In this document: positions 10,881 through 12,062 of the stretch, one piece after another | Layout: each line of letters opens with the position of its first letter | How positions within the stretch are numbered: the stretch's first letter is position 1 | Source of the DNA: a virus | Virus record (IMG/VR): IMGVR_UViG_3300009111_000003 | Length of the DNA stretch: 61,596 bases | Strand: one strand, 5' to 3' | Made by a program: the position numbers and the translations under genes | The notes under the pieces: generated by a model | What the model was told of the DNA's origin: nothing | Database searches by the model: none | What the model saw: the letters and a program-made list of their open reading frames with translations, nothing else

Positions 10881-11128
10881 AGCGGATTTTGCCCCGTTCG
10901 TGCCAGTCGATCGGTTTTTGGCTAAAAAGCGAGAAATCGAGATGAAAAGTTCTCGGTATATGCAATTCGTGGGACTGGGTTGGGTAGTGAATGAAATAGT
11001 AACTCACTGAAATCGGGCACCCTCCATGCCCGTTGCAAAGCGCGCATGCAAAACTGGTATGCAATAAAACGCATATTGTATGCAAAGTAACGTAACGGTA
11101 ACGCCCGACCCAAAACGCGTTTTGACCG

Positions 11129-11156
11129 TTGCACTTCACGCCTGCACGGGCATAAT
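11129..11156 (+). promoter_or_regulatory. Candidate sigma70-type promoter for paralogue 1 (TTGCAC-16-CATAAT)
   Basis: The sequence reads ttgcac ttcacgcctgcacggg cataat. The downstream leader carries three GGCAGGCA motifs (11201-11248). Confidence 0.4.
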
Positions 11157-11253
11157 CATTAGTGACGCCCTCACGGGGCGCACGCACGTTGACAAGTGAA
11201 GCGTGGCAGGCAGGCAGTGCAGGCGCACTGTTTGACTGATAGGCAGGCACACA

Positions 11254-11886
11254 ATGAAGTATGAAGCGCGTTTGACTGTAGTGAAGGCACTGCACGCACT
11301 AGGCAAGGCACTTGTTGACCTACAAGCACTGTTTGACACAACGCCCGTCAACAAGCGCGTGCAGGCAGTGAAGGCGTTTGACAGGGCACTGTTTACGGCA
11401 TGCGTTGACGCGCATGACGGCAACGCTGATACCGCTATCAGGCAGTGCCGTTTTCACGCCTTCACGTTGCCCTACGTTGACGCTGTAGGGCATGCGTTTG
11501 CCGTTGACGGTGGCGCAAAGCGCGGGCAAGTGACGCTACTCACTTGCACTGATACAACGGGCAAGGCGTTTGCCGTTATCACTGCACTTGACGGCAACGC
11601 TGCAAGCACAAAGTGCGTTGACACGTTCACGGGCACGCTAGCGTTTGACCGTGCAAAGGCGTGCTACCGTGCAGTGCGTGAGGGCATGCCCTACGTTGTG
11701 AAGGCAAAGGGCAAGTTTGCCGTTAGTGACAACGGGGCGCACGTCAACGCTGCACTTGTTACCGTTGCAGCGTATGAAGGCGCAACGGGCAAGGCAAAGC
11801 GCACGTTTGACGTGTACCGTGCGCACGGCACAAAGGGCAAGGGCACGGCATACCGTGCAAGTGAGGGCAAGGCACAAAGGCAGTAA
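11254..11886 (+). CDS. Unknown protein, paralogue 1 (210 aa), with atypical composition
   Basis: It aligns collinearly with ORF 12294-12851 (RFHAF, GHAFAxDGGxKRGQ, RAKAxYRAxREGxPYV, KGKFAV, HVNAA). There is no canonical SD. It lies in the VGA/TCB-free island. Confidence 0.7.
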   Translation: MKYEARLTVVKALHALGKALVDLQALFDTTPVNKRVQAVKAFDRALFTACVDAHDGNADTAIRQCRFHAFTLPYVDAVGHAFAVDGGAKRGQVTLLTCTDTTGKAFAVITALDGNAASTKCVDTFTGTLAFDRAKACYRAVREGMPYVVKAKGKFAVSDNGAHVNAALVTVAAYEGATGKAKRTFDVYRAHGTKGKGTAYRASEGKAQRQ

Positions 11887-11923
11887 CAAGGGCAACGCCT
11901 GCCACGCTTTACTTGACGGCACG

Positions 11924-11958
11924 GGGCGCATGCTACACGGCATGCGCCCTTTGCTTTG
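11924..11958 (+). terminator. Rho-independent terminator
   Basis: 10-bp stem gggcgcatgc / gcatgcgccc with loop tacacg, followed by tttgctttg. Confidence 0.7.
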
Positions 11959-12062
11959 CCCGTATGCAAACGCATCAATAGCCGATTTTATGCCATAGGA
12001 AAATCACTGCACCACGCTGTAGTGCGATAGTGGCACTTGGAAAACGCCCGAAAACTCAAGAG

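What the first reader, a model, noticed from the sequence alone, without database searches (positions are those of the whole stretch)
11027..11982. 955-bp island almost completely free of VGA/TCB trinucleotides, covering one copy of a duplicated gene
Between about 11027 and 11982, GA occurs only as TGA and TC only as TCA. GGA/TCC, AGA/TCT and CGA/TCG are absent apart from a single CGA near 11106. The depletion spans a promoter-like region, the leader, the 210-codon ORF (11254-11886) and its terminator. In the neighbouring paralogue (12294-12851) I counted about 34 such trinucleotides in the first ~230 nt, and the rest of the genome is equally rich in them. Within the ORF, every Asp/Glu codon follows a codon ending in T, Ser is only AGY, Gly is never GGA and Arg is never AGA/CGA. 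The rule is reverse-complement symmetric, which points to a dsDNA-level constraint. Aligned codons of the two paralogues reach avoidance through different substitutions (TTC C to TTT C, GGA to GGG, CAG ATG to CAA GTG), which fits selection better than one mutational process. The ORF also lacks the strong SD used by all other genes here. My inference is that the cassette has been selected either to be invisible to a very short-motif nuclease, modification enzyme or RNase, or to remain unmodified. It lies next to the putative packaging/control region, so it may be among the first DNA to enter and be expressed. I know of no described system with this signature.
Basis: partly seen in the sequence, partly recalled or inferred. 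Interest (0 to 1): 0.88.

Follow-up and report, generated by a model that had tools for sequence, protein, structure and literature searches.

The report
Trinucleotide-purged first early gene cassette
In a small clade of uncultured wetland phages, the first early gene beside the packaging genes, with its promoter and terminator, lacks six common three-letter DNA words on both strands, most likely so that an unidentified host factor that reads those words cannot act on the first DNA the phage uses.

Summary
In 11027-11982, VGA/TCB occurs once (CGA at 11106) against about 113 expected. The 877-nt site-free gap is about 11 times the next independent gap in this 61.5-kb phage genome, and 1.3 Mb of control phage DNA holds nothing comparable.

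It is not a mutational footprint or a donor's composition. The same genomic slot, the first gene divergent from terS, is purged in four related phages: L007 (715 nt), L008 (665 nt), L011 (952 nt) and, about six-fold, L001. Their slot proteins fall into three groups with no detectable similarity between them. Synonymous sites between relatives are saturated, and both paralogues are under purifying selection.

The depletion is strand-symmetric and includes the sigma-70-type promoter, DNA upstream of it and the terminator. TGA/TCA is spared or enriched.

The genome shows no modification genes and strongly avoids restriction sites, including ones that contain VGA/TCB.

Best reading: a leading "pioneer" cassette selected at the DNA level to be invisible to a host DNA-acting factor with RGA>CGA specificity. 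The factor, the order of DNA entry and the protein's function remain unproven.

The parts
11027..11982 (.). VGA/TCB-free island: one CGA at 11106, strictly site-free from 11107 to 11982
   Evidence: 1 site against about 113 expected; 877-nt and 83-nt gaps
11129..11156 (+). Sigma-70-type promoter candidate: -35 TTGCAC (11129-11134), 16-nt spacer, -10 CATAAT (11151-11156). The same -10 context, (C/G)ATAATnannagTGA, occurs in L007 and L008, and TACAAT in L001.
   Evidence: read from the sequence; not reported by the strict consensus scan; inferred
11193..11211 (+). 5'-UTR arm of a 19-nt inverted repeat (18/19) that pairs with 11897-11915
   Evidence: I2; the pairing appears in both the MFE and the centroid fold of 11163-11962
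11254..11886 (+). Gene A: 210-aa protein with no known family. Site-free copy of the duplicated gene; weak AGG-type ribosome-binding site.
   Evidence: dN/dS 0.18 against the L001 orthologue
11897..11915 (+). 3'-UTR arm of the inverted repeat that brackets ORF A
11919..11960 (+). Intrinsic terminator hairpin (12-bp stem) with tail TTTGCTTTGCCCG; the tail sequence is conserved in L008
   Evidence: I6
12294..12851 (+). Gene B: 185-aa paralogue of A (50-54% identity by tblastn and local alignment) with ordinary composition, 72 sites in 558 nt
12194..12247 (+). Two CTTGACA -35-like elements upstream of B, conserved in L001
10959..12161 (+). All five TATGCAA copies in the genome (10959, 11058, 11079, 11963, 12155), on the + strand, flanking the cassette. 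GTATGCAA-like copies lie at matching places in L001. Candidate operator sites.
10600..10889 (.). terS-A intergenic repeats: TGCCTACGCTTTTTTTA twice (10825, 10865), an inverted copy at 10600-10614, and a 42-nt imperfect inverted repeat. GGCTATGCCTACGCTTTTTT is conserved in L001. Candidate cos/pac or control region.
   Evidence: D4, I1, I4
9832..10497 (-). Putative small terminase (221 aa), assigned by position only; first gene of the late arm, divergent from A
   Evidence: gene calls; synteny in L007-L012; no Pfam hit above the cut-off
7725..9335 (-). Large terminase (536 aa). Its closest cultured relatives are T5-like terminases, at about 23% identity.

Best explanation
The island is a self-contained immediate-early 'pioneer' cassette: a sigma-70-type promoter, a short leader, one small ORF and an intrinsic terminator. 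It occupies the first slot of the early arm, directly across the cos/pac-type intergenic region from terS.

Selection acting on the DNA duplex has removed every RGA and nearly every CGA (equivalently TCY and TCG) from both strands. TGA/TCA is left alone. As a result, a host DNA-acting factor with this very short specificity cannot act on the one transcription unit the phage must use before it has made any protection. The preference appears to be A or G before GA, then C, and not T. The factor could be a frequent-cutting nuclease or nickase, or a base-modifying defence enzyme such as an ADP-ribosyltransferase, deaminase or glycosylase.

A 3-nt word cannot be purged from a whole genome, so only the leading cassette is cleaned. 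The protein in the slot is then inferred to neutralise the factor or to license entry or expression of the remaining DNA. The ordinary-composition paralogue (B) would supply the same activity later.

Shown: the depletion, its strand symmetry, its extent, its conservation by position, ongoing selection, and the absence of recognisable modification genes.

Inferred: that this DNA enters and acts first, that the agent is host-encoded and acts on DNA, and what the protein does.
For: (1) Strength and specificity. 1 site against about 113 expected. Only the three pairs AGA/TCT, GGA/TCC and CGA/TCG are affected. TGA/TCA occurs at 1.28 times expectation across five islands.

(2) The property belongs to the position, not to a protein. 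The slot next to terS is purged in the window, L007 (715 nt), L008 (665 nt), L011 (952 nt) and six-fold in L001. The slot proteins fall into three groups with no similarity at E<1e-3.

(3) Selection, not mutation. dS between window and L001 is 1.3-1.8, with dN/dS 0.18 for A and 0.24 for B. L001 sites correspond in the window to GGA>GGG, GGA>GGC, CGA>CGT, C-GAA>T-GAG and TTC-G>TTT-G. Island GC (0.567) is not lower than the genome's (0.543). A strain variant has 18 substitutions (about 10 events) in 618 nt of island and none makes a site, although 26.5% of possible substitutions would.

(4) DNA level. VGA and TCB are both at zero. The zone includes the promoter and about 100 nt upstream of it in the window and L007. 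It ends within about 25 nt after the terminator in the window, L007 and L008.

(5) Location. The genome is a complete circular assembly with two arms diverging at 10.56-11.25 kb. If cos/pac lies upstream of terS and packaging runs toward terS, this end is packaged last and ejected first, promoter first.

(6) The phage lives by motif avoidance. AGCT is at 1% of expectation, GGCC at 6%, TTAA has 0 copies, and several 6-bp palindromes have 0 copies. Relatives do the same.

(7) Precedent. Phages that lack a Type I RM motif only in the leading region escape restriction (PMC12455610). In T5, only sites in the first-step-transfer DNA are vulnerable (10.1101/866236).

(8) The one relative without an island (L009) carries a QueC-like gene and a YhhQ/Vut_1-like gene. 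These are 7-deazaguanine genes of the kind used by phages that modify G in GA (PMC10484667). This suggests an alternative answer to a GA-reading threat, but it rests on a single phage.
Against: No enzyme with VGA/TCB specificity is known to me or was found in the literature searches.

The genome termini were not determined, so 'first to enter' is inference.

About 200-400 nt between the presumed cos region and the island have normal site density. A pure nuclease model would therefore have to tolerate trimming of the DNA end.

L001 keeps 20 sites, 13 of them CGA/TCG. That fits a graded or probabilistic agent better than an all-or-none cutter.

The slot protein has no recognisable function.

L011 has the island gene without a neighbouring paralogue, and L009 has only an ordinary copy. 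The duplicate is therefore not an obligatory part of the system.
Confidence: 0.45

Rival explanations
1. Modification-free window. The phage, or its host, modifies DNA at VGA/TCB everywhere. The cassette lacks the target word so that its promoter, template and terminator stay unmodified and usable by host RNA polymerase at the start of infection.
For: Short GA-type modification motifs exist: DpdA of phage iggy modifies G in GA, and CAjan modifies GA and GGC. The promoter-to-terminator extent fits a requirement for transcribability. The replication module resembles that of Queuovirinae (SNF2 helicase, Cas4-like nuclease, AAA_24/Sak4, DUF669). Unassigned enzymes sit beside it: an FAD-oxidoreductase-like protein, an SDR and a dUTPase_2/NT5C fusion. 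Partial depletion in L001 fits a graded effect.
Against: No DpdA/TGT, Que, methyltransferase or glycosyltransferase domain was found in the ORFs scanned. tblastn with the CAjan pathway proteins found nothing. The genome strongly avoids restriction sites, including GGWCC, GGATG and GTCTC, which contain VGA/TCB, as if those sites were unprotected. CAjan, which does modify GA, has no GA-free or VGA-free island. The known DpdA GA motif includes TGA, which is not avoided here.
Confidence: 0.15
2. RNA-level protection. The mRNA of gene A is built to survive a sequence-specific endoribonuclease, such as a toxin of an abortive-infection system or a phage shut-off RNase. Loss of the complementary word is secondary to strong self-pairing of the transcript.
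For: The zone roughly matches the transcription unit. The predicted transcript is unusually structured (MFE -364 kcal/mol against -325 +/- 6.7 for shuffles, z = -5.8). A 19-nt 5'UTR-3'UTR panhandle appears in both the MFE and centroid folds. L011 has a 15/15 inverted repeat bracketing its gene. A quantitative effect on half-life would tolerate L001's residual sites.
Against: Both VGA and UCB are completely absent; an RNase should constrain only one strand. UCB could still pair through G-U wobble, so structure alone does not forbid it. Depletion covers the promoter and about 100 nt upstream of the -35 in the window and L007. No bracketing repeat was found in L001, L007 or L008.
Confidence: 0.12
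3. Replication or end-processing signal. The words are initiation trinucleotides of a DnaG-type primase (the phage's own primase-helicase or the host's). The terminal kilobase is kept free of priming sites, for example to leave a long 3' tail for concatemer formation.
For: Primases are the best-known DNA enzymes with 3-nt template specificity (my own knowledge). The phage encodes a CHC2-zinc-finger/Toprim primase fused to an MCM-type helicase. The cassette lies at the presumed genome end.
Against: Only one strand would need to be purged at a given end, yet both are. The boundaries follow the promoter and terminator of one gene. No benefit is evident for the promoter region. Nothing ties the specific words to this primase.
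Confidence: 0.05
4. Passive footprint. The island results from localised hypermutation by a TC-specific cytosine deaminase, or was imported from a donor with this composition, with no selection against the words.
For: The expected deamination products TTG/CAA and TTT/AAA are about 2-fold enriched. 5'-TC-specific dsDNA deaminases exist (DddA; abstract listed).
Against: Island GC is not lowered. The substitution paths are not C>T/G>A. A is a paralogue of its neighbour B, not foreign. Both are under purifying selection and dS is saturated. The state recurs in unrelated slot proteins. Even A's own codons, when shuffled, give 24 junction sites against 0 observed. None of 154 control loci shows such composition.
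Confidence: 0.03

Closest known systems
Leading-region restriction-motif avoidance in T7-like phages (Murciavirus / Mme2I Type I RM; PMC12455610)
   Same: A motif present elsewhere in the genome is absent only from the first-injected region. That alone decides escape. The region is variable and carries anti-defence genes.
   Different: There the motif is a long bipartite Type I site and the enzyme is identified. Here six of the 64 trinucleotides are removed completely from 0.7-1 kb, at a cost to codon and amino-acid choice, and no enzyme is known. Entry order has not been shown here.
T5 first-step-transfer (pre-early) DNA (10.1101/866236)
   Same: A short terminal segment enters first and expresses pre-early genes that protect or admit the rest. 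Only sites in that segment are vulnerable to EcoRI or CRISPR. Repeat arrays lie beside it. The nearest cultured relatives of this phage's TerL are T5-like terminases, at 23% identity.
   Different: T5's segment is about 10 kb inside a long terminal repeat and holds many genes. Here it is a single gene. No terminal repeat or injection-stop signal has been demonstrated here. The flanking repeats (TATGCAA, TGATCAGA, TTAAG arrays) are only candidates for such a signal.
Sequence-specific 7-deazaguanine DNA modification (DpdA; GA motif in iggy, GA/GGC in CAjan; PMC10484667, PMC7544227)
   Same: It shows that a GA-centred word of 2-3 nt can be read by a DNA-modifying enzyme in siphophages of about 60 kb with a similar replication module. 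The relative L009 carries QueC-like and YhhQ-like genes.
   Different: This genome has no DpdA or Que genes. TGA is exempt here but modified there. CAjan has no motif-free island.
Motif-less mRNAs resistant to MazF-type interferases (ACA-less genes; my own knowledge)
   Same: A short word is removed completely from a gene so that its product is still made while a sequence-specific nuclease is active.
   Different: That constraint applies to one strand and to the transcript only. Here it is strand-symmetric and includes promoter-proximal DNA.
TC/GA depletion footprints of APOBEC3 in papilloma- and polyomaviruses, and 5'-TC-specific dsDNA deaminase DddA (my own knowledge; abstracts)
   Same: Strand-symmetric loss of a TC-centred word, caused by an enzyme that reads TC.
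   Different: Those footprints are partial, genome-wide and favour the TCA context. Here the loss is total and local, and it spares TCA.

Membership tests
Leading-region (first-injected) restriction-motif avoidance | The motif is absent from the region but present at normal frequency elsewhere in the genome | tested here: met
   1 site against about 113 expected in the island. The other 21 genes are at shuffle expectation.
Leading-region (first-injected) restriction-motif avoidance | The region is the DNA end that enters the cell first | not testable with these tools
   Only circular assemblies are held (123-nt overlap). The position next to terS and the cos-like repeats is suggestive.
Leading-region (first-injected) restriction-motif avoidance | A cognate host enzyme recognises the avoided motif | not testable with these tools
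   The host is unknown. No enzyme with VGA/TCB specificity was found in the literature searches.
Leading-region (first-injected) restriction-motif avoidance | The region encodes an early anti-defence function | tested here: inconclusive
   The slot proteins have no Pfam, PHROG, PDB or fold match. The AF2 model has mean pLDDT 57.
DpdA-type sequence-specific DNA hypermodification (Queuovirinae) | Genome encodes a DpdA/TGT-family transglycosylase | tested here: not met
   No PF01702 hit in the scanned ORFs. tblastn with CAjan DpdA found nothing at E<1.
DpdA-type sequence-specific DNA hypermodification (Queuovirinae) | preQ0 synthesis or salvage genes (FolE, QueC/D/E, YhhQ) | tested here: not met
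   None in the window. Present only in the relative L009, which lacks the island.
DpdA-type sequence-specific DNA hypermodification (Queuovirinae) | The motif is GA in every context | tested here: not met
   TGA/TCA is not avoided; it is 1.28 times enriched across the islands.
Interferase-resistant (motif-less) mRNA | Depletion confined to the sense strand of the transcript | tested here: not met
   VGA (1 copy) and TCB (0 copies) are both missing. The zone includes the promoter and upstream DNA.
Deaminase hypermutation footprint | Loss by C>T/G>A with a fall in GC and relaxed protein constraint | tested here: not met
   GC is 0.567 against 0.543. The substitution paths are diverse. dN/dS is 0.18.
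DarT-type ssDNA ADP-ribosylation targets (TNTC, TTTW, TTT/TCT; motifs recalled from memory) | The published motifs are avoided | tested here: not met
   TNTC: 11 copies (31.6 expected), all forced to be TNTCA. TTTW: 8 copies (4.1 expected). TTT: 33 copies (13 expected). Only TCT is absent. An unknown family member with TCB specificity is not excluded.

The most novel reading that the evidence does not exclude
The island is the genomic shadow of an undescribed anti-phage factor that reads a degenerate trinucleotide on duplex or transiently single-stranded DNA (RGA strongly, CGA less so, TGA not at all). The phages counter it with a new strategy: an 'armoured' motif-free copy of a first-strike gene at the leading end. 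This strategy may be interchangeable with 7-deazaguanine modification of GA, as suggested by L009.
Probability: 0.4. Interest if true: 0.9.

Novelty: new variant of a known kind. Interest (0 to 1): 0.8.

Why it matters
Motif avoidance in phages is normally read as the footprint of 4-8 bp restriction sites. Here six trinucleotides are erased from about 1 kb, on both strands, through promoter, coding sequence and terminator. The erasure is kept for longer than it takes synonymous sites to saturate, and it recurs in slot genes with no detectable similarity.

If the best reading holds, three things follow. First, the exact specificity of an unknown defence enzyme can be read from sequence alone. 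Second, this would be a clean natural example of a "pioneer" gene that must work before the phage is protected. Third, there is a simple, scriptable signature (long gaps free of a degenerate k-mer next to terS) for finding leading regions and first-strike anti-defence genes in uncultured phages.

It also offers a test bed for how far a protein can be recoded under a severe word ban.

Tried and rejected
- **DNA matches to cultured phages:** none to 50,697 records. Protein-level relatives are remote: Pol III alpha about 36%, TerL about 23%, major capsid protein about 25%.
- **Homologues of A/B:** only the window and one relative by word search. Only the family itself among 1.8 billion cluster representatives. 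A single-protein scan of viral contigs found nothing.
- **Function of A/B and the other slot proteins:** no Pfam or PHROG hit. The Atlas hit scored 0.89, a lead only. The AF2 model had pLDDT 57. Foldseek against PDB and BFVD gave nothing at E<0.1.
- **RNA families and tRNAs:** no Rfam match in 10500-13200. No tRNA genes.
- **Strict sigma-70 scan:** found no promoter inside the island. The promoter given in this report was read by eye and by comparison with relatives.
- **Expression:** no RNA holder listed among the public runs. The two runs labelled metatranscriptomic hold only short pieces of gene B and are flagged as probably DNA. No conclusion is drawn.
- **CCA/TGG as a second avoided word:** depleted in the window and L001 only, not in L007, L008 or L011. 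Dropped.
- **Genome-wide selection for or against VGA/TCB:** none.
- **PAM avoidance:** considered from memory. No known PAM equals TCB while sparing TCA, so it was not pursued.
- **Searching the records behind the loci for TGT/Vut_1:** the records are not held. No whole-genome handle exists for the window.
- **15-nt terminator motif scan of viral contigs:** returned only chance matches, which were reused as controls.
- **TerL-profile scans:** returned mostly distant phages without islands.
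Full report
**What the window is.** The 61,596-nt window is a complete circular assembly of an uncultured tailed phage. Its first and last 123 nt are identical, so the genome is 61,473 bp.

It encodes:
- structural and packaging proteins: a Mu-type portal, an E-type major capsid protein, head-decoration proteins, a tail tube protein and a large terminase;
- replication and repair proteins: an SNF2 helicase, a PD-(D/E)XK nuclease, AAA_24, DUF669, a primase-MCM helicase fusion, DNA Pol III alpha and a RuvC-like resolvase;
- nucleotide-metabolism and unassigned enzymes: ThyX, a dUTPase_2/NT5C fusion, an SDR and an FAD-oxidoreductase-like protein.

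No cultured phage matches at the DNA level, and protein relatives are remote. The same phage occurs in several freshwater and wetland metagenomes.

The genome has two arms that diverge at 10.56-11.25 kb. Late genes run leftward from a putative terS (9832-10497) and TerL. Early and replication genes run rightward, starting with the finding's ORF.

**The observation.** It holds exactly as written.
- VGA/TCB occurs 7208 times in the window (11.7 per 100 nt) but once in 11027-11982, as CGA at 11106, against about 113 expected.
- The site-free gaps are 877 nt and the adjacent 83 nt. The next longest in the genome is 77 nt, the size chance predicts.
- Each of AGA/TCT, GGA/TCC and CGA/TCG has its longest gap here, at 4-5 times the expected maximum. 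No other trinucleotide pair exceeds about 2 times.
- All GA are TGA except the one CGA, and all TC are TCA. The codon-level statements are all correct.
- Recoding protein A with the genome's codon usage gives 49 +/- 5 sites. Shuffling A's own synonymous codons still gives 24 +/- 3.4. Observed: 0.
- The other 21 genes tested are at their shuffle expectation.
- In 154 other viral or metagenomic loci (1.32 Mb), the largest gap x density is 11.7. The islands score 67-103.

**The island exists in relatives and belongs to a position.**

Terminase relatives at 55-75% identity led to further contigs. The first gene divergent from terS is purged in several of them:

| Phage | Site-free stretch | Slot gene |
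|---|---|---|
| L007 | 715 nt | 185-733 |
| L008 | 665 nt, then one CGA, then 63 nt more | 5726-6334 |
| L011 | 952 nt | 3150-3653 |
| L001 | about six-fold depleted: 20 sites against about 126 expected | 10031-10666 |

Pooled over the five islands:

| Word pair | Observed | Expected |
|---|---|---|
| AGA/TCT | 2 | 135 |
| GGA/TCC | 4 | 148 |
| CGA/TCG | 16 (14 in L001) | 193 |

TGA/TCA is 1.28-fold enriched. Every exception in the strict islands is CGA. The avoided word therefore looks graded: A or G before GA is avoided most, C less, and T not at all.

The slot proteins form three groups with no similarity at E<1e-3:
- window and L001, each with an island copy A and an ordinary copy B;
- L008 (A plus B), L011 (A only) and L009 (one ordinary-composition copy);
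- an orphan protein in L007.

L009 has no island at all.

**Selection rather than mutation or import.**
- A and B are paralogues (50-54% identity by tblastn and local alignment), and the duplication predates the window/L001 split.
- Between window and L001, dS is 1.3-1.8 and dN/dS is 0.18 for A and 0.24 for B. The site-free state has been held through full synonymous turnover while the protein stayed constrained.
- Where L001 has a site, the window has GGG, GGC, CGT, T-GAG or TTT-G. These are different base changes, not one transition type.
- Island GC is 0.567 against 0.543 for the genome.
- A strain variant in a sediment metagenome differs at 18 positions (about 10 events) in 618 nt of the island. 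None creates a site, although 26.5% of possible substitutions would. The probability is roughly 0.004 to 0.05, depending on how independent the changes are.
- Protein B could be recoded to 2 sites synonymously. The shifted amino-acid usage of A (more Thr, Ala, Val and Cys; fewer Glu, Ser, Pro and Ile) is therefore a tolerated side effect, not a necessity.
- The enrichment of GCA, GGC, ACG, CAA and TTGAC follows from the rule. A-ending codons are safe at junctions, and Asp/Glu must follow NNT.

**Anatomy.**
- A sigma-70-type promoter can be read at 11129-11156 (TTGCAC, 16 nt, CATAAT). The same -10 context is seen in L007 and L008 (CATAAT/GATAAT followed by nannagTGA), and TACAAT in L001.
- The ribosome-binding site is AGG or AAGGGTGAG-like. 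GGAGG is impossible under the rule, which explains the "missing" strong Shine-Dalgarno.
- A 12-bp terminator hairpin follows the ORF. Its tail, CCTTTGCTTTGCCCG, is shared with L008.
- The site-free zone starts about 100 nt upstream of the -35 in the window and L007, and at the promoter in L001 and L008. It ends within about 25 nt after the terminator in the window, L007 and L008. In L011 it runs further on both sides.
- A 19-nt inverted repeat (18/19) joins the 5' UTR to the 3' UTR. It appears in both the MFE and centroid folds of a transcript that is more structured than its shuffles (z = -5.8). L011 has a 15/15 repeat bracketing its gene.
- Flanking DNA carries phage-specific repeat arrays. 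All five TATGCAA copies of the genome lie here. L008 has four TGATCAGA copies, and L010-L012 have TTAAG/GTTAA arrays.

**DNA level or RNA level.** Three observations favour a constraint on the duplex or on both DNA strands:
- the symmetry is complete;
- the promoter is included;
- depletion extends upstream of the promoter.

The structured, panhandle-forming transcript keeps an RNA-stability component plausible. It does not explain why UCB is absent.

**Self-modification or host factor.**
- No DpdA/TGT, Que, methyltransferase or glycosyltransferase domain was found.
- The genome is shaped by restriction-site avoidance. AGCT is at 1% of expectation, GGCC at 6% and CCGG at 32%. TTAA has 0 copies. 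TGATCA is nearly absent. GGTACC, GTGCAC, CACGTG and AGCGCT have 0 copies. GGWCC, GGATG and GTCTC, which contain VGA/TCB, are also avoided, and relatives behave alike. This is how unmodified DNA behaves.
- CAjan, which modifies G in GA and GGC, has no GA-free or VGA-free island. Its longest gaps equal chance.
- L009, the relative without an island, carries a QueC-like gene and a YhhQ/Vut_1-like gene. This hints that 7-deazaguanine modification and the purged cassette are alternative answers to a GA-reading threat. It rests on a single phage.

**Best explanation.** The cassette is a pioneer unit at the leading end of the genome. It has been cleaned of a word that cannot be removed genome-wide, so that it can be transcribed intact before any protection exists. 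Its product then neutralises the factor or licenses the rest of the genome, and B supplies the same activity later.

This extends a known principle:
- In Murciavirus, a Type I motif matters only in the first-injected region (PMC12455610).
- In T5, only sites in the first-step-transfer DNA are vulnerable (10.1101/866236).

The differences are the three-letter degenerate word, its total erasure and the unknown agent. The residual sites in L001, and the normal site density between the presumed cos region and the island, fit a probabilistic or reversible agent better than a simple cutter. Such an agent could be base modification on exposed DNA, or nicking.

Confidence is 0.45. The rivals are a modification-free window (0.15), RNA-level protection (0.12), a primase or end-processing signal (0.05) and a passive footprint (0.03).

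**Verdict.** The feature is real, conserved and actively selected, and no described system explains it. It is filed as a new variant of leading-region motif avoidance. There is a substantial chance (about 0.4) that it marks a new kind of defence specificity.

Noticed in passing
window 1-61596 (whole genome): Extreme genome-wide avoidance of short palindromes. AGCT occurs 2 times per strand against about 184 expected. GGCC is at 6% and CCGG at 32% of expectation. TTAA has 0 copies. GATCA/TGATC occurs 5 times against 121 expected. GGTACC, GTGCAC, CACGTG and AGCGCT have 0 copies. CCWGG, GGWCC, TGCGCA and CTGCAG are also low. This points to a host with many restriction systems. Relatives share AGCT/GGCC/CCGG avoidance to varying degrees.
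   Followed up: partly
window 1-123 and 61474-61596: A 123-nt terminal overlap. The window is a complete circular assembly of a 61,473-bp genome. Other assemblies of the same phage are permuted differently.
   Followed up: yes
window 10959, 11058, 11079, 11963, 12155 (+ strand): All five TATGCAA copies of the genome cluster around the cassette in one orientation. GTATGCAA-like copies sit at matching places in L001. They may be operator sites.
   Followed up: partly
window 11193-11211 with 11897-11915; L011 3812-3826 with 2997-3011: Inverted repeats of 19 nt (18/19) and 15 nt (15/15) bracket the island ORF. In the window the repeat forms a 5'UTR-3'UTR panhandle in the predicted mRNA, which is much more structured than shuffles (z = -5.8).
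   Followed up: partly
window 10600-10889: TGCCTACGCTTTTTTTA occurs twice, with an inverted copy and a 42-nt imperfect inverted repeat, between terS and the island. GGCTATGCCTACGCTTTTTT is conserved in L001 (9481-9500). Candidate cos/pac or terminator region.
   Followed up: no
L011 2710-2905 and 3947-4230; L010 1-160; L012 120-250: Dense arrays of TTAAGG/GTTAAG-type repeats flank the island in L011 on both sides. Contigs L010 and L012 break inside such arrays. TTAA is totally absent from the window genome. They could be protein-binding arrays or an injection-stop-like signal, or simply a cause of assembly breaks.
   Followed up: no
L008 5540-5650 (read on the - strand): Four TGATCAGA repeats lie immediately downstream of the L008 island terminator, upstream of its ordinary paralogue.
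   Followed up: no
L009 15341-16520: The relative without an island carries a QueC-like gene (PF06508, 22.4 bits) and a Vut_1/YhhQ-type transporter gene (41 bits) inserted among its structural genes. This suggests 7-deazaguanine metabolism. The window has no counterpart.
   Followed up: partly
window 31450-35090: A cluster of unassigned enzymes between the primase-helicase and Pol III alpha: an FAD/NAD oxidoreductase-like protein (332 aa, Atlas score 0.97, TM 0.75 to phage oxidoreductase clusters), a dUTPase_2/NT5C fusion, two unknown proteins and an SDR (FabG-like). Function unknown.
   Followed up: partly
window 12927-12970: CGAATACGTCAGAA is repeated exactly 30 nt apart, just downstream of the terminator of gene B. 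A related copy, ACCCGAATATGCAAGAA, lies at 12148.
   Followed up: no
window, most genes: TGA/TCA is in excess over synonymous-shuffle expectation in many ordinary genes (z up to 5, for example the primase-helicase and Pol III alpha). The cause was not examined.
   Followed up: no
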